From positions 1 through 64,000 of IMG/VR virus record IMGVR_UViG_3300032312_001770: a stretch of 64,000 nucleotides of DNA. One strand, written 5' to 3'. How positions within the stretch are numbered: the stretch's first letter is position 1; every line of letters begins with the position of its first letter. The translations under genes and the position numbers were made by a program. The notes under the pieces were generated by a model, which was given only the letters and a program-made list of their open reading frames with translations, ran no database searches and was not told where the DNA came from. The stretch comes from a virus. Taxonomy: Duplodnaviria; Heunggongvirae; Uroviricota; Caudoviricetes. Below, piece by piece: positions 5,813-53,527 of the stretch.

Positions 5813-6519
5813 ACTTCTTCATTATATTTTATATTAAAGTTCCAATCTCTTACAAATGATTCGGCCACTGGTAATAAATTTCCTTTATTGTTTATAAATT
5901 CTGCCTTATACCAACTATAATTTAGAAAATAAAAGTTTTGTTTTAATTCCCAAGATCTTTCAGTTCCTTGGCATTCGTTTTCATATGGTTCTTCACCTTT
6001 ATTTTGTATTCTTAATAATGAATCAATTTTCCAAAAAGCTGATTGATGATTATAATAAAAAGGAGAAGGAACTTCAAATTTCTTAACTCTTATACCATTG
6101 ATGTGGTAATTTGTATTTGATAGTATATAATTATACCAAGGTAAATACTCATTAATATGAATACAATCTACGTTATCAATATTCAAAAAGTTAAGACTTT
6201 CTTCAAATATTGATTTATCTACTCTGAATAAGGGCCAGAAATCATCTTGTGTGTATAATACAGAATTAAATCCTAAATCTTTTAGGTGATTTAGCGCCAC
6301 TACCATTCTTGTAGAAAAGTTTTTAGCTGGATTTTCTTCTTGACCAAAGAATCCAAAATTTAAAGTGGTAAACTTACCATATGGAAATATTTTATTTTCA
6401 GTTAAGATATAAATAGGCATATCTATATCCCAACACCAATTTATTTGATATGATAGTTTTAAACCTTCCCATAAATGTTCATATTTATCACAGGTTTGTA
6501 TTAAGATACATGTTTTCAT
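5809..6519 (-). CDS. hypothetical protein, possible glycosyltransferase (DDF/DxD-like segment TQDDFW)
   Basis: 236 aa; translationally coupled (ATGA overlaps) on both sides. Confidence 0.45.
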   Translation of the reverse strand: MKTCILIQTCDKYEHLWEGLKLSYQINWCWDIDMPIYILTENKIFPYGKFTTLNFGFFGQEENPAKNFSTRMVVALNHLKDLGFNSVLYTQDDFWPLFRVDKSIFEESLNFLNIDNVDCIHINEYLPWYNYILSNTNYHINGIRVKKFEVPSPFYYNHQSAFWKIDSLLRIQNKGEEPYENECQGTERSWELKQNFYFLNYSWYKAEFINNKGNLLPVAESFVRDWNFNIKYNEEV

Positions 6520-7631
6520 AATTGTTTAAGTATATTAAAATGAAAGTATTGAAAGTAATAATAAGCACCAAAATTTACCTTATTCATAAACTGGTTAATA
6601 TCATCAATTAAATTTTTTTCAACTTGTATAGTTATATGTTTTCTTGGATATATTGAACTCCATTTTAATTGTAAAACATCAATATCTTCTTTAGTTGATA
6701 TTTTAACAATTAGATAATCAAACTTTTCATCAGAATTAATAACAACATTATGATCAAAGTAAAGATTCTTTATTACTTCAATTTCTCTTGGATTAATAGA
6801 TGGTGAGAAGTAATTTATATGACAACAATCACCTTCTTTATTAAAAGGTGATAAGTAAAAAGGTGTTGTTTCATCAAAGCCTCTATCATAGTAATCTGAT
6901 ATAGAGTTTAAAGATTTTCTATCTACTCTAGAATTTGAAATCTGAAACATTCTATTAGTTTCTTCATTTATCTTATTTCCCTTTTCTGGAGTATGTGATA
7001 TAGAGTTTTCTCTATATGAATAACCATGTAAAGTTCTTGGTAGAAAAAGTACTTTTCCAATTTCTTCACAAGTTGTTATTTTAAGTACATCTTCAGCACA
7101 GTGAATCCATTCTTCTTTTTCAGAAAATTTATTAATATTATTTCTCCAAGCTCTGCAATCACCATAGTTATACTCATATGATTTATCTAGTGTTGATTGA
7201 TAGATATTGCAATTATTTTTATAATTTATATGTCTTGTAGCTCTTAAACTACCATTGACATCATTATTATAAATAATAGAATTAGTTGATATTAATTGAA
7301 CTTCTGGAAATTTTTCAAAGTTATGTTTATATACTTCCAATAACTTAGGAAACATAATATCATCAGAATCAAGAACCATAAAAATATCACCAGTTGACAT
7401 ACCAATAGGTGGGTTCCAATAGAATTCTTTTTTATAACTTGGTTTGGCCATTTTCACTTTTGGATTAGTAGAAGCTAACTCTTCTAGTTTTTTAGAAACT
7501 TCAGAGTTACTACTAAAATCATCAGATACTATCCATTCCCAATTTTTATAAGTCTGTGAGTTAACAGATTCTACTAATTGGTCAAAAGTATCTAAATATT
7601 CATAAAATCCAGTATAAATTGTAAATCTCAT
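6516..7631 (-). CDS. family-2 glycosyltransferase (GT-A fold)
   Basis: N-terminal SVNSQTYKNWEWIVSDDFS plus VLDSDD (DxD) motifs typical of GT2. Confidence 0.75.
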   Translation of the reverse strand: MRFTIYTGFYEYLDTFDQLVESVNSQTYKNWEWIVSDDFSSNSEVSKKLEELASTNPKVKMAKPSYKKEFYWNPPIGMSTGDIFMVLDSDDIMFPKLLEVYKHNFEKFPEVQLISTNSIIYNNDVNGSLRATRHINYKNNCNIYQSTLDKSYEYNYGDCRAWRNNINKFSEKEEWIHCAEDVLKITTCEEIGKVLFLPRTLHGYSYRENSISHTPEKGNKINEETNRMFQISNSRVDRKSLNSISDYYDRGFDETTPFYLSPFNKEGDCCHINYFSPSINPREIEVIKNLYFDHNVVINSDEKFDYLIVKISTKEDIDVLQLKWSSIYPRKHITIQVEKNLIDDINQFMNKVNFGAYYYFQYFHFNILKQL

Positions 7632-7645
7632 TAAATTAAATATTT

Positions 7646-7858
7646 TTATCCACCATAAGCAGAAGTCACATAACCACCACGAATAATAAAGTTAATTCTA
7701 TTTTGTTTTACATCCATTGTAAGCATTTTAGATTGACCATCAACCTCAACAACTCTTACTTCGAATCCACCATCTTTAGCATATTGTGTTGCTTCTTCTA
7801 AAGTTTTACCTAAGTATTCTCTTTCGGTAATCATACCATTATCTCTTAAATAACTCAT
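7646..7858 (-). CDS. hypothetical small protein
   Basis: 70-aa ORF. Confidence 0.35.
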   Translation of the reverse strand: MSYLRDNGMITEREYLGKTLEEATQYAKDGGFEVRVVEVDGQSKMLTMDVKQNRINFIIRGGYVTSAYGG

Positions 7859-7957
7859 AATTTAATTTTTCTTTTTATATAATAAAATTGATAATTTGTT
7901 TTTTAATAAAATTAGAAACATAGTTTTTAATATATACTTCAAACTATAAAACTTAAT

Positions 7958-8842
7958 ATGATAGATTTAAATTATAAAATTGGCGCCGATGGTCAGAAAA
8001 CATTAAGTGCTACGGGTAGTACTATACAATCAGCTTCTATAACAACAAGTGGATTTCCTGTTCAAGTAACTATTACTGGTGACGCTGAACCAGCAAGTGG
8101 TGGATGGCATAAATTACAAATCTATAGAGATTCAACAGCGATTGGTCAGATTTTACAAATAGAATCAAACGGTACTGGTAAAAACATGCCAGTTGCTATG
8201 GTTACAATTGACACACCAGTGGCTGGAACATATACATATTCTGTAAAAATGGTTGGTAGTACTGGTATGTCTGTTACATATAGTGAAAATGGTGAGTTAT
8301 CTATGATTGTTGAAGAGAAAGTTATTAGTTCACATAACTCTTTAAATTGGTTAAGAAGAGATATTAATTCGCCGGTTACTTATTATGGATATTCACATGA
8401 TGTGAATGCTGATGATACTGATGACAACTGGGCTATTAAAAAAGTAACTGTTTCTGGAACTGTTGAAACTGTTAAGTGGACTAATGGTGAATATAATACA
8501 ATTTCTAAATGGAGTGAGCGAGTTGCTTCTTTTGCTACACCTGCAGGGTCTTTAGGTTTAACTTGTAGTAGTAGTGGTTCATCTTTAAATGTTAGTTGGA
8601 ATCAATTAACAGGAGTTGATAATTATCAAGTTATCATTTCATCGAATAATATAATATATTCTGATTTAGGAACTCAACTTTATAATAATAAAAATTTCAA
8701 TTCTAGTCAAATAACTAAAGTAGTAACAAACAGCGGAAGCTATGCTTATTATCATGCCTCCGCTGGTAATACCTATACTATTACTCTAAATGCTGTTAAT
8801 GTTGCAGGTGCATCATCATCAACAGTTACTATTACTGCTTAA
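7958..8842 (+). CDS. Ig/Fn3-like structural protein; paralog of the N-terminal domain of gene 63079..>64000
   Basis: Shared segments LQIYRDSTAIGQILQIES / TIDTPVAGTYTYSVKMV versus LQLYRNSTPIGKIIQAENS / FIDTPSAGNYSYSMRTV. Confidence 0.55.
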   Translation: MIDLNYKIGADGQKTLSATGSTIQSASITTSGFPVQVTITGDAEPASGGWHKLQIYRDSTAIGQILQIESNGTGKNMPVAMVTIDTPVAGTYTYSVKMVGSTGMSVTYSENGELSMIVEEKVISSHNSLNWLRRDINSPVTYYGYSHDVNADDTDDNWAIKKVTVSGTVETVKWTNGEYNTISKWSERVASFATPAGSLGLTCSSSGSSLNVSWNQLTGVDNYQVIISSNNIIYSDLGTQLYNNKNFNSSQITKVVTNSGSYAYYHASAGNTYTITLNAVNVAGASSSTVTITA

Positions 8843-9239
8843 TAACTTCTTTGATAGATTCAGAAACCATTTTCTTGTCTGCTGGAAGAGTTGCAAATTC
8901 TTTCATGATAGCACCAATTTGAGTGATACCGGAATTAACAAGTTCTGTTACTTTAGCAGTAACTTCTTCTTTAGACATTTGTGTTGGAAGGTAAACTTCA
9001 ATAACTGACAACTCTACTTTAGACTTTTCGTCATTAGTTATAGCAATAGTTTCTTTTAGAGACTTAACAGTTTTTGTGAGAATTTTAGTTACCTCAACAT
9101 CTGAAAGGTTATCAGTACCAACATTCTTTTCTACAGTTTGAATTTCTCCTTTAACAACAGATAGTATACTTTTTGCTACCATGTTCTTAGACTTAAATGC
9201 TGTCATAAAGTCTGTGTTGATTTTTTCTTTCAGTGTCAT
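8832..9239 (-). CDS. GatB/YqeY-domain protein
   Basis: Full-length similarity to the YqeY family (MTLKEKINTDFMTAFKSKN...LSDVEV...YLPTQMSKEEV...). Confidence 0.6.
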   Translation of the reverse strand: MTLKEKINTDFMTAFKSKNMVAKSILSVVKGEIQTVEKNVGTDNLSDVEVTKILTKTVKSLKETIAITNDEKSKVELSVIEVYLPTQMSKEEVTAKVTELVNSGITQIGAIMKEFATLPADKKMVSESIKEVIKQ

Positions 9240-9706
9240 ATTATTTTATTTACTTATTTACAAATTAAAAAAAGAAGATTGTTGGAACGTCTGCCAAGTA
9301 TGGTCGAAATCCGAGAACCTTACCTTGACTTTTAGTGACCTCATCACTTAGGATTACCTTTTAATATGCTTTCGCCTCGGTTGAGCAGTGTTACCATTCT
9401 GCTCGTTTTAATCTTCTTTGAGTTGGGTTTATTTTTCTAATATTTTGAGACATCTATCACCAACACAACTTTGATATCTACACCCTTACTATTATCATAG
9501 TATATTTTACAAGGTAGTTCACTGGGTTTAACAAGGGTGTTAACTTATTTAACAGCTACTTACTACCATAATTTCGTTAAAACTCACACTTACTCATTAT
9601 ATAATGTGAAATCTTTCGACCTGCTACTAACGTAGCTTTTGTTTTGACGACTCTTTGCTAATTCTTATACAAATATAGTGACAAAGTTTTAAATTGGCAA
9701 ATTATT

Positions 9707-9718
9707 TTTAATATATAC
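9707..9718 (+). promoter_or_regulatory. TTTAATATATAC promoter-like element 3 nt upstream of the ATG (one of at least 9 copies)
   Basis: Recurs at 7926, 9707, 19038, 36550, 53548 (+) and 29218, 59296, 61014 (-). Confidence 0.45.
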
Positions 9719-9721
9719 AGT

Positions 9722-11359
9722 ATGTCAAACATGAAATATCTAATGTTATTTGAAGCTTTTGAAGCTAATGCTTTGTCAAAAATGATGGCATTTTTGACAA
9801 AAAAGACTGATAGTAATTCTAAAGAAAGATTCCGTGATAAACTAAAAACATTAATTACTAGATTAGATATTCCTATTGATAAAATTAAAGATAATGATAT
9901 TAAATATCTTAATAGAGCTCAAGCTCTTAAATTAAGGAGTGAAAGGGAATCTGATTCTATATTTTGTTTGAAGTTTTGGTTTTCAATAGATGAAGGTTAT
10001 TTAGGTTTTACTGGTACAGGTAATTTAACAATGGACTTTAATGAATATATTAGTGGAACTAGAAAAAGAAGTTCATCAGATAAAAATTCACCATTTACCA
10101 CAAGAGAATTAAATCATATTAAAAATGATTTAGATATTAATATTAAAACAGGATCTTTAGAACCAGTTAAAAACTATGAAAATTTACAACATGGTCAATT
10201 AGTCATGGGTATATTTTCAGATGATGAAGATTTAGATAGATTAGGAATAGCTAAAATTTGGAGAGATGAAAACAATTTATTTGCTATTCAAAATGTTACT
10301 TCTGGTGGAGAGCCTGGGTCTCAGATTGATGGTGTATCTTGGAGAGAATGGGGATATAGATATTCTTGGTCACTAGACAGTGTTTACTCACCCGGATCAG
10401 ACCATTGTAAGTTACATATTTATACACCATCTGATAAACCTATTCATGTAGTAGGTAATAAAAAAGAAGTTGAAGAAGTAGAAGTTAAGAGTCTATTTGA
10501 CTTTAATTTACCAGTAGATAGATATTATAGTTTAACAGAATGGGGTGATACTTCTTGGTCCATAGATAGTTATAAATCTGTTGAAAAATCAGACTTTGCA
10601 ATTGTCTTAATGATAGATGATGTTGTTAAATCAGTTGGAACTAAAGTCAGTAATGTCAGAAAATCTAGGGAAGAATCAAAAGAAGGCGCTACAAGTTTGA
10701 TGAGTGACCATCAAATTAAAGAAGCTAATATTAAAAGATATTTAATGGGATTGGTTTCTAAAATGGGTATTGCATTAGATACATCAAATCTTCAAAATCT
10801 ACAAAAGATGGTTATAAAATCTACTTGTGATGAATTTGCTTTTATTTCTATTTATAAAGAAAGACCAGATTTTGATACTTTAAATCAAATATCAAAAGAC
10901 ATTTATAACATGATGGATGTTAAATCGGAATCTGATAAAAAATATTATTTAGAAAGAGCAATATCATACTATCAAAGTTTAAATAGTATTTCTAATGATT
11001 ATAAGAAAAATTATGTTGAATCTTTAAAAGTTATTAAAAATTTTGATAATGAGCAAGTTAAAGAATTCTTTGATATAGCAATAAAAATGGGCAATAAAAT
11101 AAAAAAGTATTTACTATCTCAAAATATTCAAAGTATTGAAGATTTAAGAATGATTATTATTAAATTAAGAACTATTAAAACTATTTCAAGAGAAAACGAG
11201 TTTAGCTTTAGTGGTTTTATTAAAAGTATTTTAGATGAATTCCACTATAAAAGTGAAGTAGAATGGCTTTGCGCAAATGGCTATGGTGATAGAGATATAT
11301 CTAAAGAACTTACTAGAATTAAACACTTAGAAAGATATGTTGATTCTTTATTGAGATAA
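9722..11359 (+). CDS. hypothetical protein (N-terminal MKYLMLFEAFEA motif)
   Basis: 545 aa; promoter-like TTTAATATATAC 3 nt upstream of the ATG. Confidence 0.5.
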   Translation: MSNMKYLMLFEAFEANALSKMMAFLTKKTDSNSKERFRDKLKTLITRLDIPIDKIKDNDIKYLNRAQALKLRSERESDSIFCLKFWFSIDEGYLGFTGTGNLTMDFNEYISGTRKRSSSDKNSPFTTRELNHIKNDLDINIKTGSLEPVKNYENLQHGQLVMGIFSDDEDLDRLGIAKIWRDENNLFAIQNVTSGGEPGSQIDGVSWREWGYRYSWSLDSVYSPGSDHCKLHIYTPSDKPIHVVGNKKEVEEVEVKSLFDFNLPVDRYYSLTEWGDTSWSIDSYKSVEKSDFAIVLMIDDVVKSVGTKVSNVRKSREESKEGATSLMSDHQIKEANIKRYLMGLVSKMGIALDTSNLQNLQKMVIKSTCDEFAFISIYKERPDFDTLNQISKDIYNMMDVKSESDKKYYLERAISYYQSLNSISNDYKKNYVESLKVIKNFDNEQVKEFFDIAIKMGNKIKKYLLSQNIQSIEDLRMIIIKLRTIKTISRENEFSFSGFIKSILDEFHYKSEVEWLCANGYGDRDISKELTRIKHLERYVDSLLR

Positions 11360-11710
11360 TAAATCTATTTCTTTTTTACGCTCATCAATTTCATATATCA
11401 AAGCAAGACAATCTCTTTTTAATTTTTTAAGTTCTTTAGCCTCGGTGATACTAACTTTTTTTAATTCAGTTTCAATTCCTTGAATTTCAGTTTGTATAGA
11501 TTTGCTTATTTTATTCAACTCTGATTTTATAGTAGATTGTATATCCGGTATTAGTGATTTATAATATGGATTATCATATATAATTTCTTTGTATTGATTT
11601 GGTTCAAATTTCTTTACCAACTCAACAAGGTGCTTGAGTATATCTTCCTCAGTTAGAGAACTTTTTAATTTAATTAACAAAGGATTAATATCTTGATTTT
11701 TACGAGTCAT
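11348..11710 (-). CDS. hypothetical coiled-coil protein
   Basis: 120 aa, Lys/Glu-rich. Confidence 0.4.
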   Translation of the reverse strand: MTRKNQDINPLLIKLKSSLTEEDILKHLVELVKKFEPNQYKEIIYDNPYYKSLIPDIQSTIKSELNKISKSIQTEIQGIETELKKVSITEAKELKKLKRDCLALIYEIDERKKEIDLLSQ

Positions 11711-11711
11711 T

Positions 11712-12146
11712 TTATACTACACGACGGATCTCTCGATCCATATCTCTTTTTTTAATTGTTTCTCTTTTATCGTATAACTTTTTACCTTTAACAACACCTA
11801 ATTTAACCTTAACTCTGTTATGTGCTGTAAATATTTCTAACGGAACCATAGTTGTTCCTTTATCTTGAAGTAATTTTTCAATTCTATCAATCTCTTTACG
11901 ATTAAGAAGTAATTTCTTATCTCTATTTTCATCATGTGGTTGGAATGCGTGACTTTGTGAATATCTAGCCACTTTCATATTCTTAATCCAAATCTCACCT
12001 TTTTGTATATAAGCAAAACAATCAGCAATAGTTACATTACCAGCTCTAATAGATTTAACCTCACTACCTAATAGCATTACACCTGCGTCGAAGTTCTCCA
12101 ACACAAAGTATTCATAATAAGCTTTTCTATTAGTTGTTATTTTCAT
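11712..12146 (-). CDS. smpB: SsrA-binding protein SmpB
   Basis: Clear SmpB signature: YFVLENFDAGVMLLGSEVKSIRAGNVTIADCFAYI...KLLLNRKEIDRI...GTTMVPLEIF...VKVKLGVVKGKKLYDKRETIKKRD. Confidence 0.85.
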   Translation of the reverse strand: MKITTNRKAYYEYFVLENFDAGVMLLGSEVKSIRAGNVTIADCFAYIQKGEIWIKNMKVARYSQSHAFQPHDENRDKKLLLNRKEIDRIEKLLQDKGTTMVPLEIFTAHNRVKVKLGVVKGKKLYDKRETIKKRDMDREIRRVV

Positions 12147-12732
12147 AGTTACAAATATAGTTATAATCTTTTAATTTATCAAATGATACCAATATATCAT
12201 CACCGTTTTCACCAAATCTATTCTTTATTACTTTCATTGATTCTTCTTGCATCACAATAGCAACATCACTCAAAAAAATAGAATGACTACCACCAGAAAA
12301 ATTTGTAATACTGGAATCATCAGCATTCTTTACACTACTATTTAGTGATGTTAATATTAAAAGTTTGTAAGGCGGTGTTTGGGGATAAACACCAGAATAA
12401 TTTGAGTACATATCTTCTCTAATTTTATTTAAGATATTACCTATTTGTCTTTGTCGACCACCTAAATCTTTCCAATTATCAATTGATATATCATTCAAAT
12501 CTAAAACAAGATACTCTGGATTATTTACAGTATCTCCAGTTTCTAAAATTGATTTTAGTTTCAAATCTCTTAAAAAATATTTAAAAGAAAAAGACGAGTC
12601 TATTTCAGGAACCACCAAGTGAGGTAGTTTTGAAATAATCTCGTCTTTGAGTCTTTCCTGCTTAAATCTATATCCTAAAAGAGATATATTAGATTGGCTC
12701 AGTAGGTCAAAAAAATAACCAATATCTTTCAT
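12130..12732 (-). CDS. hypothetical protein
   Basis: 200 aa; overlaps smpB by 17 nt and abuts trx. Confidence 0.4.
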   Translation of the reverse strand: MKDIGYFFDLLSQSNISLLGYRFKQERLKDEIISKLPHLVVPEIDSSFSFKYFLRDLKLKSILETGDTVNNPEYLVLDLNDISIDNWKDLGGRQRQIGNILNKIREDMYSNYSGVYPQTPPYKLLILTSLNSSVKNADDSSITNFSGGSHSIFLSDVAIVMQEESMKVIKNRFGENGDDILVSFDKLKDYNYICNYENNN

Positions 12733-13055
12733 TATGATAAGTGACTATTGATAAGATCAGTTAATGCTTTTTTAGTTACAGCACCTTTTGTAGTCTCAAC
12801 AATTTCTCCATTTTTGTAAATGAAAATTGTTGGAATATTTCTAATACCAAGTTCCACAACTTTGTCTCTATTTGCATCTGCGTCACACTTACCAACTTTA
12901 AGTGTTTCGGAATAATCACTTGATATTTCATCAATAATAGGTGAAATTGCTTTACAAGGACCACACCAAGCTGCCCAAATGTCAACAAGTACTAATCCAC
13001 TACTAACGAACTCATCATAGTTTTCGCTGTTTAATTCTGTTATATATGCTACCAT
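12732..13055 (-). CDS. trxA: thioredoxin
   Basis: WCGPC active site (VDIWAAWCGPCKAISP) in a 107-aa thioredoxin-sized protein. Confidence 0.85.
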   Translation of the reverse strand: MVAYITELNSENYDEFVSSGLVLVDIWAAWCGPCKAISPIIDEISSDYSETLKVGKCDADANRDKVVELGIRNIPTIFIYKNGEIVETTKGAVTKKALTDLINSHLS

Positions 13056-13099: not shown

Positions 13100-14413
13100 T
13101 TAGAAATACCAGACTTTTTCATTATTTTCATTATCAATAATCTCTTCTATATTTAATATTTTATTTACTTTACCTCTTGTATCATTAACTATTTTCTTTC
13201 TAACAGAAAGTTCTAATAACAACATTGTTTGTTCATCTAAAATAATATCTTTATCTACTTTAACACTTTCTAATATAGAAATTGCTACAATAGGATCTTC
13301 TTTAAACTTATCTAAAAACTTTTTAATAACCTCAATTTGTTCAGACATTTTTAATCCTTTAAGATTTTCAATAGAACCTGGAGCATATTTACTAAATCTT
13401 TGTAATAAATCCATATCTTCTTGGCTCACTTCACGGTCTATATAATGAACATTATCAAAAAAATAGTATAGTTTAGACCACATATCCTTTAGACCTTGGT
13501 CTTTACCGTAGATGTTTCTCATATAAAATAAAAAGTCTGTTGACTTAAATATTTTATTAAGATTATTATCTTCAAATATTTGAGGAAGATTACTGTAAAC
13601 TATTTTTTCAAAATCATCAGTCAGTGGAACCTCAGTCACTTCTGTTTTAACACCTCTAGCAACTAAATAGTAAAGTTCAACTTTCTCACCAGTTTTTCCA
13701 AATACAAATTCTTCAGCTTCTAAATCTCTTGACATTTGAAAATACTTAGAAAGCATATCTTTATGGTCCTTACACATTTCTAAATATCTATCTTTAAATC
13801 TTAATTTGATTCTATCAATGAATCTATAAGAAAGAGCATATTGAATAAGTTTGAATTCAAATTCATCAAGTTTGGCTTTTAATTCTTTAGATTTTTTAGA
13901 TATACGAACTGCTGTATGTGAAGGTGTCATTAAGTTAGAAACTTTTAACTCACCTGTTTTTAAGAAATCTTCAAATTCAGAAGTCCAGAATAACTTATCA
14001 TTATCAATATCATAGCCAATTCGAGTAGCATTGATATCAAATGACTTAATAATCAAAGAAGGATCTGATGTGTTTGATTTATACTTAATAGTATTGAACA
14101 TATCGTCTCTCTCAGACTCGACTATAGAATAGAAATCTTTAGTATAATTATTAAAATTCATACCATTGTAGTCTTCATAATACTTTGTTTCTTTTTCTTG
14201 GTAATTGAAAAGAGTTTTCTTATTGTTATCTAATTCTTTTTCAATACCGTCAAAAACAAAGATGTCAATGTCATTGACCACAGCTTTGTTACCTGATACC
14301 AATTCCCAAACAATATTTGCGATGGCGCCTCCAGCAACAAATCCGTGTAGAGGCAGACCCCACTTTTCTTTGATTCTATCTATAGCCTGTCTTCCTAGAG
14401 ATTCTATATTCAT
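13100..14413 (-). CDS. pol-beta-superfamily nucleotidyltransferase (possible tRNA nucleotidyltransferase/CCA-adding-like head domain)
   Basis: N-terminal GFVAGGAIANIVWE...NDIDIFVF matches the hGG...DxD nucleotidyltransferase motif (compare LVGGAVRD...DxD of CCA enzymes). Confidence 0.4.
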   Translation of the reverse strand: MNIESLGRQAIDRIKEKWGLPLHGFVAGGAIANIVWELVSGNKAVVNDIDIFVFDGIEKELDNNKKTLFNYQEKETKYYEDYNGMNFNNYTKDFYSIVESERDDMFNTIKYKSNTSDPSLIIKSFDINATRIGYDIDNDKLFWTSEFEDFLKTGELKVSNLMTPSHTAVRISKKSKELKAKLDEFEFKLIQYALSYRFIDRIKLRFKDRYLEMCKDHKDMLSKYFQMSRDLEAEEFVFGKTGEKVELYYLVARGVKTEVTEVPLTDDFEKIVYSNLPQIFEDNNLNKIFKSTDFLFYMRNIYGKDQGLKDMWSKLYYFFDNVHYIDREVSQEDMDLLQRFSKYAPGSIENLKGLKMSEQIEVIKKFLDKFKEDPIVAISILESVKVDKDIILDEQTMLLLELSVRKKIVNDTRGKVNKILNIEEIIDNENNEKVWYF

Positions 14414-14419
14414 AAATAA

Positions 14420-15187
14420 TTACATTAACATTTCATCGATAGCGTCAAACTCTTTCTTAGTCTCACGAACTAAGATAGCTCTTCCGTTACGAATTTGTGA
14501 TTTAACTGTTGATAGGTTTAGGTTAAGTTTATCAGAGATATCTTTATAAGACATTCTTTTTAACTCACGCATTTCGATTACATCACGATAAGGATTCTTT
14601 AATTTTTCAATGTGTTTCTTCATGATGTCAGCTTTCTTAGCATGAACCTCATACATAAAGTTGTCACCTTCATCTTCTTGAATGAAGTCTTTCATTGTTG
14701 TTCCTTCATCATCGAACTCAATATCTAATGACATTGTTTTCTTTTCGTTTTTAAGATCTTGTAATGCAAGATTTTTTGCTATTGTAAATAGCCAGGTGGA
14801 GAATTGAGATTTTTCTTTTTCATATTTCTCAATTTTCTCAAAAGCCGCCATGAATGAATCTGTTGAGATATCTTCTGCCTTTTGAGGATCATTAGTAATT
14901 TTAGCTGTAAAATAAACTAATTTTGGATAATACTTTGTGTACAATGAAGAGAAATCTTTACCCGTTCTTTCTCTAAATATTTTTTCTTGTTCACTGAATA
15001 GAATTGCCTTTTTAGGTTCCATATTTTGCCGTTTCTTTTTTTGTTGAAGAGTCATTAATTCATCCTCAATATTGCCTTCTTTTGCCGTTAATGGTGATTG
15101 CTCACCCGAATAATTTATATCATATATATCAGCAAAAGTTGCGCCTATTTCAAAGTTTTTTTCACTTTGATTTTTTATTTCTATCAT
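14420..15187 (-). CDS. RNA polymerase sigma factor, sigma-70/ECF-like family
   Basis: Region 2-like FSTWLFTIAKNLALQDLK and region 4 HTH MSYKDISDKLNLNLSTVKSQIRNGRAILVRE. Confidence 0.75.
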   Translation of the reverse strand: MIEIKNQSEKNFEIGATFADIYDINYSGEQSPLTAKEGNIEDELMTLQQKKKRQNMEPKKAILFSEQEKIFRERTGKDFSSLYTKYYPKLVYFTAKITNDPQKAEDISTDSFMAAFEKIEKYEKEKSQFSTWLFTIAKNLALQDLKNEKKTMSLDIEFDDEGTTMKDFIQEDEGDNFMYEVHAKKADIMKKHIEKLKNPYRDVIEMRELKRMSYKDISDKLNLNLSTVKSQIRNGRAILVRETKKEFDAIDEMLM

Positions 15188-19077: not shown

Positions 19078-22000
19078 ATGCCAATTCAAAGCTCATTTCC
19101 GACAGTCGCTGACCAGGTCATTTCTTCCAATAAGAATATTATAGAAATACTAGGTCAAATTAATAGTTTAACAACAACATCAGATCAATCAGTAAATATT
19201 AAAATTAATGATGAAAATGGAGTTCTAAGAACTTTTGCAGTTCCTTCATTCACATCATTAAAGGCAGATATAGATAGACTGAATAATAATATTAATTCAC
19301 TTTATAGCATTGATGCAAATGGCTCAATGATTTCAACATCTAGCCAAAATAAATATAAAAAAATAATTACTGTAGATTTAAATAGAGAACCAAATGCAGT
19401 CGGAACGCTTGGTGCGCTTACTAAATTCAAAGCTGTTAATAACTGGTTTTTTGACGGACTTATGAGTCCAATCATTTCTGTTGAATTGGATTTAACTAAT
19501 AAAGTAGAAAATAATGTAAGAAAAGTTTTAAGTAGAAGATATATTGTTGATTTTGCTTCTGATGCTTCAGGTAATTTAACGGCATTAGGTCAATCAGCAC
19601 TAAATAGCTTTAATACTCAATTTAGAGGAAACTCTTCAATATTGGTAACCGATTTTGAAAACTGGCACAATACAACACCTGGTGTTCTTTATCCTACAAA
19701 TCCTCAATTTGATGAACAAGTATTTGATTTAGATCCACATGACTTATTATATGATGGTCAGTTTTCTGTGATTAAAATACAAGAAGATAGAATTAATAGA
19801 AAGCTTTTTTACGTTTTAGACACTTTAACATATTTAGTTAGAAGTACTAATCAAACGGCTCAATTATCTATTGGCAGTGAGGTTATCATCAATTCTCCTC
19901 AAACATCAACAAGATATAAAGTAATTGAGGTATCAACTGCGGAATCTAGTCCAAGAGTTAGATTTGAAAGAGTTGAAGGTATGGAAGCTATTCCAGTTGG
20001 AATTGGAACTCTTAAAATCTACTCACCAGTTATTTATAATAAGAAAGTAAAAGTAAGTGTTGGATATAATGAAAGAAATGTAATCTTTGTTAAACCTATA
20101 AATGCAGATGTTAATTTATTAGCAAGAAATTGGAGTTTAGGTACAGGATTCTGGACAAATGATTTAACACTAGATTCAACAGCACCTGAGAACGGTCTTA
20201 CTATGGAACAATTCTATACAGATTATGTATATGACTATGGCACAGTTCTAAAAGATTTAGTTGCTAAAAAAACACCTAATTCTTTAGCTGGTACACCAGT
20301 ATCACCAACATTAAATGCTACTAACTTTAAAGTTGTTCAAATTAATAAACACTTAACAGATACGCCAAATTCTAATTTAATTAAACAAAAGCATAATTAT
20401 CAATTAACACTAAAATCTGAAATTCAACAAATTCAAGATGCTATTGTAGATAAAAATGCTAAATCTAAATTTGTTAAATTTAAATCAGAATCTGATAAAA
20501 AACAAGTTAGTTTAGAAATCGAAGAACTTTCAAGAAAGAAAGATAGTAAATCTAAATTACTCGGTACTACAACTCAAGAGATTATTCAATTATCTAATAG
20601 TCCTCAAACAAAGGTACAACCTAAATTCAGAATTAGAGGATTCTGGACTATACCATCTGCTGTTATAACAAGAGGTACAAGACCTCAAGAGATTGTACAA
20701 TTTAGAGTTCAATATAGATACTTGAGTAAAGATGGTTCTGAAGCTCCTATTGAAACATTTTCAATTGATGCTACTCAGAAAAAAGGTGCATTCTCAAACT
20801 GGAATGAATTTAAAACAGATGCTAGAAAAAGAACTTATAATCAAGGAACTGGCGAATACACTTGGGAAATTGAAGATGTTGAAAAGGCAGATACGCCAAA
20901 CATTAATCAATTAGACTTAGATATTCAAGCTAATGAGAAGATTGAAGTTAGAATTAAATCTATATCTGAAGTTGGTTGGCCCGAATCTCCAGTAGAATCA
21001 GATTGGTCTGAAATTTTAAGTATTGAATTTCCAGATGATTTAAATAACGTTTTAAATGAAAATGATTTCATATTAAAAGCAGCCACATCAGAAGATTTAA
21101 AAATTAAAATGAATCAAGAGTTATCAGCCAAGGGTTTAGATGACCATTTAGCTGACACTATTGTTGTTAATAATGTTACTTTTAATCACGATGCTAGTAG
21201 AATACTATCAGGATTTAAAGATGGTAATGGTGTATCACTTGATTTATTTACCTATTTAAAATCCTTACAAGATAGAATTGCCACACTTGAAGAAAGAATA
21301 CAAAGAGTTAAAGGTGAACTTGAAATTGTTATTCTTAGAAATAATCAAGAGTTTGTAGTTGCTAATGGTAGTGAAACTACATTTAATATTGATTGTGAGG
21401 ATTATCTTGATAGCTATACAGGATCTGGTATACCAACTGGTAGAGTTTATGCTAATAATATTTATGTAATTAAAGACTTTGTTGTTAGAGTTAGAAATAA
21501 ATCAACAAGTTCTGCATTAGGATTACTTTCTAATAGAACTTATTTACAAAATCCAAACGTTTATAACACAGGAGTTCCTCAAACATTCTGGGTTAATGAC
21601 CAGGATGAATTAATAACATCAGATGCTTCGGGTCAAACAAGAACACAATTAGATAATCAATTTATATGGACTATAAATTATGACTCGGTTTTAGAAACAT
21701 CAGTTACTAAATTAACAGAGAACATAGGAAATACATTCAACACAAACGCATCAAACTCTATTACTAACATTCTATCATCTAATGAATATAATGTTGGTTT
21801 TAACGAAACATCTATACTTTCATTTGTTAGTAATAATAAATCATTATTAGATCCATCTAAATGGATAGATACAAATATTTCAGTTTCTTCTACAACTAAA
21901 CTATTAACAACTATACATCCCGTTGTTCCTAACTTAGAAACAATTGTTGAAACAAACTCGGAAAAAGTAAAAACAGTAAATACTGGTGATGCTAACTCTA

Positions 22001-27553: not shown

Positions 27554-28651
27554 ATGAATATGAATAATAAAACAATTGGAAATGAGGAAATGATGGACAT
27601 CTTTGATGAAACTATATTTACTCGCAAAGGCACTCGCAATAAAAGCACCAAAGAGTATCAAGAAATGATTAAACTTTATAAACTTGACGAAATCGCTATC
27701 CCTGAAGAAGGTCAAGTAGTATCAGCTAAATACGTTGGCATGTCAGCAGGTCAATTTGTGTTCAGTGTAGTTGGATACAAAGACGATGTAAGAGTTGATG
27801 ATAAAGTTGGTGAATCTAAATACTTCAAGAATTTAAACTTGAATGATATGATTGATGTATTAGTTACAGAAGTTAATCAAGATGCTTTTATGATTAAAGG
27901 AAGTGTTTCTTCTCTTTATGAATCAAGAGCTCATGCTAAACTTAAAGCACTTGTTGAAGGTGAATCAGTTATGGTTACAGTTAAGAGTCTTAACCCTGCT
28001 GGTTACGATGTTGAATTAAATCACGGTGGTGTTACACTTCCAGGATTTATGCCAAACACCTTAGCCGGAATCAATAAGTTACACGATACAATGTCTATTG
28101 TAGGACAGAAATTTAGTGTAATGATTGAGTCATATGCTCAAAACGAAGGAACGTATATTGTTTCAAGACGTAAGTATCTTCAAACACTTATTCCTGAGGC
28201 TGTTAAAGAACTTGAATATAATAAAATATATCAAGGTCACGTTACAGGAACTACACCATTTGGTGTGTTCGTAGAGTTTAATGAATGCTTAACTGGAATG
28301 ATTCACAAAGCAAACGTTAATCCAGATTGGGCAGAGAAGTTAACTTCAATCACACCAGGATTTGAAATTGACTTCTACATCAAAGAAGTGATTAAAGATA
28401 AAATTATCTTGACTCAAATTCTTCGTGAGACTCTTTGGGACAACATCAAAAACGGTCAAATCATTGAAGGTACCGTTAAAGACACCAAAGCTTTTGGTAC
28501 TTTAGTAAACCTTGATGATGAGACAGTGGGTCTTATCCACACTTCAGAAATGGAGAAACTTGGTAAGAAATTCACTTCGGGTCAACCGATTAAAGTGAAA
28601 GTTTTAAGTGTAGACCGCATGAGTAGAAAAATATTCTTAACCTTAGGTTAA
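27554..28651 (+). CDS. S1 RNA-binding-domain repeat protein (ribosomal protein S1-like)
   Basis: Four S1-like repeats, e.g. GQVVSAKYVGMSAGQFVFSVVG, GHVTGTTPFGVFVEF, GTVKDTKAFGTLVNL...GQPIKVKVLSVDRMSRKIFLT. Confidence 0.7.
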   Translation: MNMNNKTIGNEEMMDIFDETIFTRKGTRNKSTKEYQEMIKLYKLDEIAIPEEGQVVSAKYVGMSAGQFVFSVVGYKDDVRVDDKVGESKYFKNLNLNDMIDVLVTEVNQDAFMIKGSVSSLYESRAHAKLKALVEGESVMVTVKSLNPAGYDVELNHGGVTLPGFMPNTLAGINKLHDTMSIVGQKFSVMIESYAQNEGTYIVSRRKYLQTLIPEAVKELEYNKIYQGHVTGTTPFGVFVEFNECLTGMIHKANVNPDWAEKLTSITPGFEIDFYIKEVIKDKIILTQILRETLWDNIKNGQIIEGTVKDTKAFGTLVNLDDETVGLIHTSEMEKLGKKFTSGQPIKVKVLSVDRMSRKIFLTLG

Positions 28652-33311: not shown

Positions 33312-34037
33312 TTATTTTGTTTCAATTTTTTCAAGAATATCCTTTAATGACATATTCAACAGAGTCGTATAATCATCTGGTGTAATTCCTAAATTAGTAC
33401 CAGACTTTTGACAAGCCCAATCAATAATTGAAAGATGATGTCTATTTGGATCGATGACTGATTTAGACAACATACTCATTAGTTCTAATTCTTTATTAGC
33501 AACCAATTCAATTTTTCTAATATCTTTTGATTTTACAATTGCTGGCTCTTCACCGTGTAATACAGAGTTTAGTGAAATCTCACGAGCTTCTTGTGGAGAC
33601 AATTTTCTAAATTTCCAAGTAGAGAATTTTAGTGTACGAGGAATACCAACAAACTTAACTGTTTTTTCAATGCGTGTGTACGATTGTTTATTCCAACCCA
33701 TTTTTTGAGAAGATTTTGACTTTAATTCTTCAATTTGATACATACATCCTTTACCAAGTGTTTTATAACTATCTGAAGTACAAACAAGAATGTCACCTTT
33801 AGAAAGATCTTCAAATTTTAAATCTTCAATGTGTACTCTCGGAACAATAACATTTATCTTAGGTAAAGGATTTCCGTCAGTGTCAGTAAAATTATCAACA
33901 ACAAATCTACCTACTCCAAGAATGTCAACTGTGCCTTCTTGCCAACGTTGGTTAGTACCATCATTATAAAGACTACCTGTCTCATAACGAACACCTTTAA
34001 CTAATCTTTTAGTTGGTCTTTTACAAATTACTATCAT
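33312..34037 (-). CDS. hypothetical protein
   Basis: 241 aa. Confidence 0.4.
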   Translation of the reverse strand: MIVICKRPTKRLVKGVRYETGSLYNDGTNQRWQEGTVDILGVGRFVVDNFTDTDGNPLPKINVIVPRVHIEDLKFEDLSKGDILVCTSDSYKTLGKGCMYQIEELKSKSSQKMGWNKQSYTRIEKTVKFVGIPRTLKFSTWKFRKLSPQEAREISLNSVLHGEEPAIVKSKDIRKIELVANKELELMSMLSKSVIDPNRHHLSIIDWACQKSGTNLGITPDDYTTLLNMSLKDILEKIETK

Positions 34038-34434: not shown

Positions 34435-34887
34435 TTATAATTCTATATTTGTTTTATTAAAAATTTCTTGTAAATCTTCCTTAGATAATTTATCAAGTAC
34501 AAAGGTAAGGATATCTTCTGAATTGTCAAATTTATTTAAAATATAATCTTTCATAAATTCGATATAGTCAGGTTTATCAGCTATTCCAAGACTCAACATC
34601 TTTACATTTCGCTGCCATTGAATTCCACCGTTAACAACATATCTACCCTCAATATTTTTAATTTCAGTAGTAAATTTTATACGATAATCGGTTGTAGCTC
34701 CTGTATTATAATCATAAGTTTCCCAATCACGAATAGGCATTTCATGAACTCGTTCTGGATAATTATGTATATTGTCGCACAAATCCTTAGCTTCTTTTAA
34801 ACCAAGACCACTACACTCTTTTATCAACTTAACAAATGCTAACTTGTTAGGAGTTTTTTCGATTAATTTTATTTTAATAGTTTTCAT
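34435..34887 (-). CDS. protein with an N-terminal ribosomal L7/L12 C-terminal-domain-like module
   Basis: [36 protein letters not shown] aligns with the L7/L12 CTD ([36 protein letters not shown]). Confidence 0.5.
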   Translation of the reverse strand: [150 protein letters not shown]

Positions 34888-53060: not shown

Positions 53061-53370
53061 CTAATATTTGATTAATTTTTTTCTCTCTAAGTAGTGATTT
53101 GTTTGTTTTTTCAAACTCACCTCTTTTATCTTTATATCCACAATCTTTACAAACTGATATACTGTCTTGAGTTGGTTTGGAACCATCTACCGGTATAAAG
53201 AACTTCCAAGATATGTTTTTACTTTTACAATTAGGACAACCCGATAAATCCTCTAAAGGTTTTATAAAGCCGACCTTTTGTAGTTTTCCTAAATCATATG
53301 TTTTATTACTTTGATTTGGAAATAAACTAAGTAACTTATTAATCATTATTTCTGTATTTCTCTTGAACAT
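53047..53370 (-). CDS. zinc-ribbon protein (CPNC...CKDC)
   Basis: Two CxxC pairs. Confidence 0.4.
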   Translation of the reverse strand: MFKRNTEIMINKLLSLFPNQSNKTYDLGKLQKVGFIKPLEDLSGCPNCKSKNISWKFFIPVDGSKPTQDSISVCKDCGYKDKRGEFEKTNKSLLREKKINQILDEFQ

Positions 53371-53527
53371 ACTTAGCTTTATTAATCTCAGCTCTTCTTT
53401 TTACAGATCTTTTAGTGAACTCTTTTCTATCTCTTAATTCTCTAAGAGTTTTAGTTTTGTCCCATTTTCTTTTAAGGGTTTTAAGAGCTTTCTCAATTGT
53501 TGTTCCTTCTACTTTTACTAATAGCAT
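53339..53527 (-). CDS. rpsU: ribosomal protein bS21 homolog
   Basis: 62 aa; MLLVKVEGTTIEKALKTLKRKWDKTKTLRELRDRKEFTKRSVKRRAEINKAKYV parallels the bacterial S21 pattern (MPVIKVRENE..ALRRFKR.CEK.G.L.E.RRR.FYEKPT..RKR). Confidence 0.7.
   Translation of the reverse strand: MLLVKVEGTTIEKALKTLKRKWDKTKTLRELRDRKEFTKRSVKRRAEINKAKYVQEKYRNND

What the first reader, a model, noticed from the sequence alone, without database searches (positions are those of the whole stretch)
11712..12146. Phage-encoded SmpB without an obvious partner tmRNA in the window
The ORF is an unmistakable SmpB (trans-translation cofactor). It sits in a minus-strand operon with thioredoxin, a pol-beta nucleotidyltransferase and a sigma factor, 7 kb from the tRNA array. 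SmpB works only with tmRNA (ssrA). No canonical tmRNA (5' GGGG, tag ORF ending ..AA-stop, 3' T arm-CCA) could be recognised by eye. The phage may therefore use the host tmRNA, or a divergent or permuted ssrA lies elsewhere, for example the 480-bp ORF-free region 9240-9720.
Basis: partly seen in the sequence, partly recalled or inferred. Interest (0 to 1): 0.6.

Follow-up and report, generated by a model that had tools for sequence, protein, structure and literature searches.

The report
Huge-phage SmpB gene lacking its tmRNA
A giant bacteriophage carries an intact, well-conserved copy of the bacterial ribosome-rescue protein SmpB but no detectable gene for its RNA partner tmRNA, so it most likely borrows the host's tmRNA; phage SmpB genes of this kind have been reported before, so this is a modest refinement, not a discovery.

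Summary
Window 11712-12146 (-) encodes a full-length SmpB (PF01668 1.6e-53; TIGR00086 and NF003843 above their cut-offs). No tmRNA is found in the window by ARAGORN, Rfam or a 25-sequence tmRNA profile.

The window covers 64 kb of a 110-kb metagenomic scaffold. The scaffold comes from a huge phage related to LR745206.1 (635 kb) and LR756502.1 (642 kb). I scanned both complete genomes. Each has the syntenic smpB and 46-59 tRNAs, but no tmRNA.

The phage SmpB clade has at least 120 clusters and is at most 51% identical to any cellular SmpB found. It is under strong purifying selection (dN/dS 0.07-0.19). It keeps the C-terminal tail motifs that trans-translation needs.

Best reading: a working SmpB, part of a translation-support gene set (tRNAs, S1, S21, YqeY), that uses host tmRNA.

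The proposed hiding place for ssrA (9240-9720) holds a different thing: a conserved, covarying structured RNA leader of yqeY.

SmpB and tmRNA in huge phages were reported in 2020, and a sister phage reportedly has both. Novelty is therefore low. The new element is that tmRNA is missing from complete genomes.

The parts
11712..12146 (-). smpB: a full-length 144-aa SsrA-binding protein with an intact C-terminal tail (G121-K122-K123, D126-K127-R128, I131-K132)
   Evidence: PF01668 1.6e-53. TIGR00086 and NF003843 score above their cut-offs. PDB alignments run through the tail. Tail motifs are invariant or nearly so in 24 sequences. dN/dS is 0.07-0.19.
12130..12732 (-). 200-aa ORF of unknown function whose stop overlaps the smpB start by 17 nt. 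It is not an obligate partner of SmpB.
   Evidence: No Pfam or PHROG family matches it. It is 31-75% identical in L017, LR745206 and LR756502. In L016, whose SmpB is the closest relative (87%), it is essentially absent.
12732..13055 (-). Thioredoxin gene in the same minus-strand gene string
   Evidence: PF00085 2.5e-28. It is syntenic in all four relatives.
13100..14413 (-). 437-aa protein with only weak nucleotidyltransferase or Gad2-like similarity
   Evidence: PF06042 scores 19 bits, below its cut-off. PF26128 Gad2 is a weak hit. It is conserved at 48-85% in relatives.
14420..15187 (-). Phage sigma factor at the head of the gene string
   Evidence: Sigma70_r2 1.3e-15 and r4_2 2e-11. phrog_1740 matches.
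11348..11710 (-). 120-aa ORF of unknown function (no family match) starting 1 nt after the smpB stop codon
   Evidence: ORF listing. No family matches it. Conserved at 36-66% in relatives.
9262..9600 (-). Conserved structured RNA leader directly upstream of yqeY. It is not a tmRNA.
   Evidence: 80-87% nucleotide identity to relatives. Found upstream of yqeY in 9 further phage contigs or genomes. 14 of 48 consensus pairs show compensatory changes. No Rfam family matches at E<=10.
8832..9239 (-). yqeY (GatB/YqeY-domain protein), a translation-associated gene between smpB and the tRNA array
   Evidence: PF09424 1.3e-15. phrog_1460 matches.
2472..4493 (-). tRNA array (Ser, Arg, four Lys, Trp, Phe, His, Phe, plus aberrant tRNA-like genes). 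None has the G3:U70 alanine identity expected of a tmRNA tRNA-like domain.
   Evidence: ARAGORN. Rfam tRNA hits. G3:U70 screen.
27554..28651 (+). Ribosomal protein S1-like protein (translation-support context)
   Evidence: PF00575 1.3e-21. 65-66% identical in LR745206 and LR756502.
53339..53527 (-). Ribosomal protein S21 (translation-support context)
   Evidence: PF01165 5.6e-11. Gene call.

Best explanation
The ORF is a functional, phage-adapted SmpB. It belongs to a huge (Mahaphage-type, probably >600 kb) phage that does not encode its own tmRNA. After infection the phage protein most likely binds the tRNA-like domain of the host's tmRNA. Together they would enter ribosomes stalled on broken or stop-less mRNAs, with the SmpB C-terminal tail probing the empty mRNA channel. 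This would keep trans-translation, and so the supply of free ribosomes, running through a long infection.

SmpB would then be one item in a translation-support kit that also includes tRNA arrays, ribosomal proteins S1 and S21, and YqeY.

Shown here: SmpB identity, an intact tail, purifying selection, conserved synteny, and absence of a detectable tmRNA gene in the window and in two complete relatives.

Inferred, not shown: binding to host tmRNA, and any benefit to the phage.
For: 1. SmpB identity is at equivalog level and full length.
2. The tail residues align with E. coli G132-K133-K134, D137-K138-R139 and I142-K143. They are invariant or nearly so across 23 phage-clade sequences, and the protein is as long as T. 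thermophilus SmpB. A decoy would be expected to lose them.
3. dN/dS is 0.07-0.19 with synonymous sites near saturation.
4. At least 120 clusters at 67-94% identity lie on contigs up to 630 kb. The best cellular SmpB found is only 51% identical. This is an old, phage-resident lineage.
5. The gene order sigma, 437-aa protein, trx, (orf200), smpB, then yqeY and the tRNA array is conserved in LR745206, LR756502 and two IMG/VR contigs.
6. No tmRNA is found in the window or in 9 kb of the scaffold beyond the window.
7. No tmRNA is found in complete LR745206 by ARAGORN, all Rfam families at gathering threshold, or nhmmer.
8. No tmRNA is found in complete LR756502 by ARAGORN or nhmmer.
9. The detection tools work on E. 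coli ssrA and on 24 tmRNAs beside bacterial smpB genes.
10. Other translation genes lie in the window: S1, S21, an L7/L12-like protein and YqeY.
11. In Lak-A2 and the 735-kb phage, smpB also sits beside tRNA arrays with no tmRNA within 20 kb.
Against: - Only 73 kb of this phage's own genome could be examined, so a tmRNA may lie elsewhere.
- The sister megaphage Mar_Mega_1 is reported to carry both a tmRNA and an SsrA-binding protein. Loss of tmRNA is therefore not universal in the wider group.
- Nothing here shows that the phage SmpB binds any tmRNA.
- The host is unknown. A Bacteroidota host is predicted in PMC7162821 for the five genomes above 634 kb, which include the two relatives.
- A very divergent, intron-split or coding-frame-less tmRNA could escape all three methods.
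Confidence: 0.55

Rival explanations
1. The pairing is ordinary. This phage has its own tmRNA gene somewhere in the roughly 500+ kb of genome not in the window, and SmpB works with that.
For: The window is 64 kb of a 110-kb scaffold from a phage whose relatives have 635-642-kb genomes. Huge phages with tmRNAs exist. Mar_Mega_1, in the sister family, is reported with one tmRNA plus an SsrA-binding protein. In the relatives most tRNA arrays lie outside the region homologous to the window.
Against: The two closest complete genomes carry the same syntenic smpB but have no tmRNA by ARAGORN (default to -ps90) or nhmmer. LR745206 was also negative with every Rfam family at gathering threshold. A screen for conserved non-coding stretches between the two genomes gave no tmRNA-sized candidate.
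Confidence: 0.13
2. The phage SmpB interferes with host trans-translation instead of supporting it. It would sequester or re-direct host tmRNA so that phage proteins are not ssrA-tagged, or so that a stalled-ribosome signal used by the host is blunted.
For: A phage-encoded mini-tmRNA (mycobacteriophage DS6A) is reported to inhibit endogenous tmRNA, so phage interference with this pathway has a precedent. The phage clade is far from any cellular SmpB, at most 51% identity. E. coli W147 aligns with M, I or V in the phage clade.
Against: The tail motifs required for tmRNA accommodation (GKK, DKR, IK) are conserved under strong purifying selection. From my own knowledge of the SmpB literature, mutants that block tagging are tail-truncated or tail-mutated. 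A simple sequestering protein would not need the tail.
Confidence: 0.12
3. SmpB works with a non-canonical phage RNA, such as one of the aberrant tRNA-like genes or another structured RNA, or has a tmRNA-independent role.
For: The adjacent tRNA array holds tRNA-like genes with 22-65-nt insertions and other oddities. Coding-frame-less mini-tmRNAs of about 65 nt exist elsewhere. A conserved structured RNA lies 2.1 kb away.
Against: No tRNA-like element in the window has G3:U70. The insertion-bearing elements have no ARAGORN-called counterparts at that position in the relatives' arrays. The structured RNA is always attached to yqeY, ends in a U-run just before its start codon, and lacks every tmRNA tRNA-like-domain feature. 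In LR745206 the only extra Ala-like element (367082-367156) has a normal UGC anticodon loop.
Confidence: 0.07
4. The gene is bacterial, not viral: a mis-binned host fragment or a host flank, as with prophages integrated at ssrA.
For: Many 'phage' records that contain smpB are temperate phages with smpB at the very end of the record. These are host flank next to the ssrA attachment site.
Against: Here smpB lies 12 kb inside a 110-kb scaffold. The scaffold is collinear with complete 635-642-kb phage genomes.
Confidence: 0.02

Closest known systems
Bacterial SmpB-tmRNA trans-translation system (E. coli, T. thermophilus, M. tuberculosis structures 5zey, 1p6v, 1j1h)
   Same: Same protein family at equivalog level, same length class, and the same tmRNA-binding core and C-terminal tail motifs.
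   Different: No ssrA gene accompanies it. In 24 of the 80 bacterial loci sampled, ssrA lay within 3 kb of smpB. It is at most 51% identical to any cellular SmpB found. It is encoded by a virus.
SmpB and tmRNA genes reported in huge phages (Al-Shayeb et al. 2020, PMC7162821), and marine megaphage Mar_Mega_1 with one tmRNA plus an SsrA-binding protein (PMC9723777)
   Same: Same kind of phage, since the closest relatives LR745206 and LR756502 come from that study. Same gene, and the same setting among translation genes.
   Different: Those papers list SmpB and tmRNA together. In this lineage two complete genomes have SmpB only.
Phage-encoded tmRNA without a reported SmpB (phage G; mycobacteriophage DS6A mini-tmRNA)
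   Same: Half of the two-component rescue system is carried by a phage, and the other half is presumably supplied by the host.
   Different: It is the opposite half. Here the protein is phage-encoded and the RNA would come from the host. That those phages lack smpB was not checked here: the phage G paper simply never mentions SmpB.
smpB at the ends of temperate-phage records (for example StauST398-5, CP-1639, Klebsiella ST15-OXA48phi14.1)
   Same: The same annotation, 'SsrA-binding protein', in a phage record.
   Different: Those copies sit at the record termini and are 35-38% identical. They are host flank from prophages integrated at ssrA, not phage genes.

Membership tests
SmpB (PF01668 / TIGR00086) | Scores above the curated family cut-offs over the full length | tested here: met
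   PF01668 180.9 bits (cut-off 27), profile positions 1-140 of 143. TIGR00086 174.6 bits (cut-off 119.1). NF003843 181.4 bits (cut-off 130).
SmpB (PF01668 / TIGR00086) | Basic C-terminal tail with GKK and DKR motifs, needed for A-site accommodation | tested here: met
   G121-K122-K123, D126-K127-R128 and I131-K132 align with E. coli G132-K134, D137-R139 and I142-K143. They are invariant or nearly so in the clade. The tail aligns with solved structures.
SmpB (PF01668 / TIGR00086) | Binds the tRNA-like domain of tmRNA and supports tagging | not testable with these tools
   Needs binding or complementation assays.
SmpB-tmRNA pair encoded in one genome | An ssrA gene present in the same genome | tested here: not met
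   None in the window or in 9 kb beyond it. None in complete LR745206 or LR756502. This phage's own full genome is not available.
tmRNA (RF00023 and permuted forms), tested on window 9240-9720 | Match to the tmRNA covariance models or to ARAGORN | tested here: not met
   No tmRNA-family hit at E<=10 in that region. ARAGORN finds none down to -ps90. nhmmer finds none.
tmRNA (RF00023 and permuted forms), tested on window 9240-9720 | 7-bp acceptor stem with G3:U70, a T-arm with a T-loop, a 3' CCA context, and a resume codon with a tag frame | tested here: not met
   The consensus structure of 9 homologs has none of these. The element ends in a U-run about 25 nt before the yqeY ATG.
Coding-frame-less mini-tmRNA (tRNA-like domain only), tested on the aberrant tRNA-like genes at 2472-4687 | Alanine identity pair G3:U70 on a tRNA-like body lacking an anticodon arm | tested here: not met
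   None of the 22 ARAGORN tRNA-like calls in the window (permissive settings) has G3:U70.

The most novel reading that the evidence does not exclude
A whole lineage of >600-kb phages has dropped tmRNA but kept a fast-evolved, phage-specific SmpB. This protein would capture the host's tmRNA, or an unrecognised phage RNA, and so put ribosome rescue under viral control. It might be re-tuned, for example to rescue ribosomes without condemning phage proteins, or to counter host defences that cleave tRNA or mRNA.
Probability: 0.12. Interest if true: 0.6.

Novelty: new member of a known kind. Interest (0 to 1): 0.3.

Why it matters
Trans-translation is close to universal in bacteria, and from prior literature (my own recollection, not checked here) some phages need it to grow. 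A virus that supplies only the protein half of the system would show that ribosome rescue becomes limiting during very long infections by giant phages. It would also show that SmpB, and not tmRNA, is the limiting part.

This gives a simple, testable handle: complementation of a smpB deletion, and pull-down of the bound RNA. That would show how huge phages take over translation. It does not open a new class of system.

Tried and rejected
1. Hidden tmRNA in the window. ARAGORN at relaxed thresholds gave hits only at -ps80: 7 permuted calls in the window and 44 in LR745206, which is noise.
2. The single -ps90 permuted call in LR745206 (367066-367509). Its 'tag' lies inside a 246-aa ORF, so I rejected it.
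3. A mini-tmRNA among the odd tRNA-like genes. There is no G3:U70 in the window. In LR745206 there is only the true tRNA-Ala plus one weak Ala-like element with a normal anticodon loop.
4. A tmRNA-sized conserved non-coding region shared by the two complete genomes. The best candidate (LR745206 344989-345397) is a conserved 66-aa ORF.
5. A sequence profile of 25 tmRNAs. The best hit in any phage sequence was E=0.2, over a 30-nt T-arm-like stretch.
6. blastn of a Muribaculaceae tmRNA against all phage records gave no match.
7. orf200 as an obligate SmpB partner. It is absent from the closest relative, L016.
8. Mar_Mega_1 could not be fetched, because it is not in the collection.
9. The supplements of PMC7162821 held no per-genome tmRNA or SmpB table that I could search.
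10. A 'GGATTTCGAC' stretch in the yqeY leader recalls, from memory, the tmRNA D-loop motif GGAUUCGAC. I treated it as coincidence because no other tRNA-like-domain element is present.

Full report
**Observation**

The ORF at 11712-12146 on the minus strand is 144 aa with an ATG start. It matches Pfam SmpB (PF01668) at E=1.6e-53 over essentially the whole profile. It exceeds the curated equivalog cut-offs of TIGR00086 and NF003843.

phmmer against PDB sequences aligns it from residue 3 to 142 with solved SmpB chains (5zey_C at 3.8e-36, then 7ljp, 1p6v, 1j1h). The alignment includes the C-terminal tail.

- Thioredoxin and the sigma factor are confirmed.
- The 'pol-beta nucleotidyltransferase' rests on a sub-threshold hit.
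- The nearest ARAGORN-called tRNA of the array ends at 4493, 7.2 kb away.

**Where the window comes from**

The exact protein is on ENA scaffold KRAE22-1_SAMEA4981829_METAG-scaffold_29, which is 110,473 bp long. The window is the reverse complement of roughly positions 46,216-110,215. The scaffold therefore ends about 260 nt past the tRNA array and continues 46 kb past the other end of the window.

The nearest phage records are LR756502.1 (642,428 bp) and LR745206.1 (634,780 bp). Their SmpB proteins are 64-67% identical to this one, and about 75% DNA identity extends over parts of the region. These are the 'Mahaphage' genomes of Al-Shayeb et al. 2020. That paper already states that huge phages encode tmRNAs and SmpB.

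The window is therefore about a tenth of a huge-phage genome. Absence of ssrA from the window proves little by itself.

**No tmRNA in the window**

- ARAGORN finds 10 tRNAs and no tmRNA. It still finds none at -ps95 and -ps90. At -ps80 it gives only scattered 'permuted' calls, which are noise.
- Rfam 15 gives only tRNA hits at gathering thresholds.
- Rfam at E<=10 over the whole window, and over 1-10,000 with laxer filters, gives no tmRNA family hit. The one exception is RF04321 at 16.5 bits, E=5.8, lying over ordinary tRNAs.
- Nine kb of the scaffold beyond the window (L112) is also empty.
- ARAGORN found E. coli ssrA as a control. It also called a tmRNA within 3 kb of smpB in 24 of 80 bacterial loci from many phyla.

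**No tmRNA in two complete relatives**

I fetched LR745206.1 in full.
- ARAGORN finds 59 tRNAs and no tmRNA.
- Every Rfam family at gathering threshold gives tRNAs, one GOLLD RNA and a DUF805b motif, but no tmRNA of any form.
- The single -ps90 'permuted tmRNA' call has its tag inside a 246-aa ORF.

I fetched LR756502.1 in full. ARAGORN finds 46 tRNAs and no tmRNA down to -ps90.

An nhmmer profile built from 25 tmRNAs found nothing better than E=0.2 in either genome, the window, or the IMG/VR relatives.

A screen for non-coding stretches conserved between the two genomes found:
- tRNA-array leaders;
- GOLLD RNA;
- the yqeY leader;
- a few short elements.

It found no tmRNA-sized candidate. The best one is a small conserved ORF.

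Against this, the marine megaphage Mar_Mega_1, placed as sister group to these two, is reported with one tmRNA. Its annotation table also lists an SsrA-binding protein. I could not fetch that genome.

**Is the protein functional?**

- The database holds at least 120 clusters at 67-94% identity, all 144-150 aa, on contigs up to 629,742 bp.
- The best cellular SmpB returned from a scan of representatives of 185,579 species is 51% identical. The top hits are spread over several phyla, including Spirochaetota, Chloroflexota, Bacteroidota and Firmicutes, so no donor lineage stands out.
- In an alignment of 23 clade members with E. coli SmpB, the core motifs (N6, the GxEVKSxR block, RxKLLL) are invariant. 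The tail motifs aligning with E. coli G132-K133-K134 and K138 are invariant, and D137 and R139 are nearly so (D or N, and R or K). I142-K143 is also invariant.
- E. coli W147 aligns with M, I or V in the phage clade.
- Pairwise dN/dS between five phage copies is 0.07-0.19, with synonymous sites near saturation.
- From my own knowledge of the SmpB literature, tail mutants bind tmRNA but do not support tagging. A conserved tail therefore argues for a working factor and against a decoy.

**Context**

The gene order is ligA, GT2, sigma, 437-aa protein, trx, orf200, smpB, orf120, then a divergent 545-aa ORF, then yqeY and the tRNA array. This order is collinear in LR745206, LR756502 and two IMG/VR contigs.

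orf200 overlaps the smpB start. It is missing from the closest relative, so it is not an obligate partner.

The window also encodes an S1-domain protein, ribosomal protein S21, an L7/L12-C-like protein, YqeY and DnaJ. No ArfA, ArfB, release factor or Clp/Lon protease was found among the 59 ORFs of 110 aa or more.

Lak-A2 and the 735-kb phage have SmpBs only about 41% identical to this one. There too smpB sits within a few kb of large tRNA arrays, with no tmRNA within 20 kb.

Many other 'phage' records with smpB are temperate phages in which the gene lies at the record terminus. That is host flank at the ssrA attachment site.

**The region proposed as a hidden ssrA (9240-9720)**

This region is 80-87% identical at the DNA level to relatives whose flanking proteins have diverged much further. 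On the minus strand it forms a structured RNA of about 340 nt. The RNA runs from about 9600 to 9262 and ends in a helix plus a U-run about 25 nt before the yqeY start.

The same element lies directly upstream of yqeY in LR745206, in LR756502 (3' domain only) and in seven IMG/VR huge-phage contigs.

In a nine-sequence alignment, 14 of 48 consensus pairs keep pairing through changes on both sides.

It has no acceptor stem, G3:U70, T-loop, CCA or tag frame. No Rfam family matches it. It is best read as a cis-acting leader of yqeY, not as a partner of SmpB.

**Mechanism**

The best-supported reading (about 0.55) is that the phage makes its own SmpB, which loads host tmRNA and sustains ribosome rescue during infection. 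It would act as part of the translation-support set.

The rivals are:
- an own tmRNA elsewhere in the unsampled genome (about 0.13);
- an interfering or re-tuned SmpB (about 0.12);
- a non-canonical RNA partner or a tmRNA-independent role (about 0.07);
- bacterial contamination (about 0.02).

**Novelty**

Phage-encoded SmpB is published for exactly this group of phages. What I add:
- Two complete genomes of the family lack any detectable tmRNA.
- The phage SmpB clade is large, old and under selection.
- The suspected ssrA region is a different RNA.

That makes this a new member of a known kind, with a modest twist. Interest is about 0.3.

Noticed in passing
window 9262-9600 (-): A conserved structured RNA of about 340 nt lies directly upstream of yqeY and matches no Rfam family at E<=10. 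It is present upstream of yqeY in LR745206, in LR756502 (3' domain only) and in 7 IMG/VR huge-phage contigs. 14 of 48 consensus pairs show compensatory changes. It ends in a helix plus a U-run just before the yqeY ATG, so it may be a new attenuator or riboswitch-like leader.
   Followed up: yes
window 2925-3054 (-): A leader-peptide-like mini-ORF (2980-3054, MKTIKTSSKSSSRSSKMSEVRLCS) is followed by an intrinsic terminator (about 2925-2955). It sits immediately upstream of tRNA-Arg(ACG) and four tRNA-Ser genes. The ORF is conserved, with synonymous Ser-codon changes, in L016, L017, LR745206 and LR756502. Its Ser and Arg codons are the ones read by the downstream tRNAs. There are weak Rfam hits to His_leader and trpB. 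It may be an attenuator controlling phage tRNA genes.
   Followed up: partly
window 2472-4687 (-): The array holds several atypical tRNA genes. Three tRNA-Lys genes of 84-88 nt have long variable arms and sit beside a normal 74-nt one. Three tRNA-like genes carry 22-65-nt insertions in the anticodon region (3103-3231, 3297-3438, 3450-3562). One tRNA-Sec-like fold (2752-2834; 8-bp acceptor stem, 6-bp D stem, 46.5 bits to RF01852) has a Ser UGA anticodon. There is also an 83-nt tRNA-Trp with an extra arm (4103-4185). Long-arm Lys tRNAs recur in LR745206, LR756502 and L017.
   Followed up: partly
window 4753-4865 (-); LR745206 near 342.27, 387.59, 406.61 and 419.74 kb: An element of about 115 nt recurs at the upstream edge of separate tRNA arrays in the relatives and once in the window. 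It is probably a shared promoter or leader of the tRNA operons.
   Followed up: no
L011 19875-20280 (LR745206 420,875-421,280); LR756502 about 434.6-435.1 kb: LR745206 carries a GOLLD RNA (287 bits in Rfam) next to tRNA genes, and LR756502 has a homologous stretch by blastn. None is in the window.
   Followed up: no
window 27554-28651 (+), 53339-53527 (-), 34435-34887 (-): The phage encodes a ribosomal protein S1-like protein, ribosomal protein S21 and an L7/L12 C-terminal-domain-like protein. All three have homologs in LR745206 and LR756502.
   Followed up: partly
phage-collection hits H77-H97 (for example KC595279.1 positions 37-453, MK433578.1 positions 33375-33800): In many temperate-phage records smpB lies at the extreme end of the record. 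It is probably host flank from prophages integrated at ssrA and not a phage gene. Counts of 'phage SmpB' from databases are therefore inflated.
   Followed up: partly
L121 (Lak-A2, smpB at 20001-20420) and L122 (LR756503, smpB at 20001-20414): In two distant SmpB lineages of huge phages the gene again lies within a few kb of large tRNA arrays (19 and 27 tRNAs within 20 kb). No tmRNA is within 20 kb.
   Followed up: partly
LR745206 367082-367156 (L010 15082-15156): A weak tRNA-Ala-like element with G3:U70, a 4-bp D stem with a 4-nt loop, and a normal UGC anticodon loop. It scores below the Rfam tRNA threshold and sits in a gap inside a tRNA array.
   Followed up: partly
window 1062-2018 (+): A collagen-like Gly-X-Y repeat protein (PF01391, 4.6e-22) lies next to the tRNA array.
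   Followed up: no
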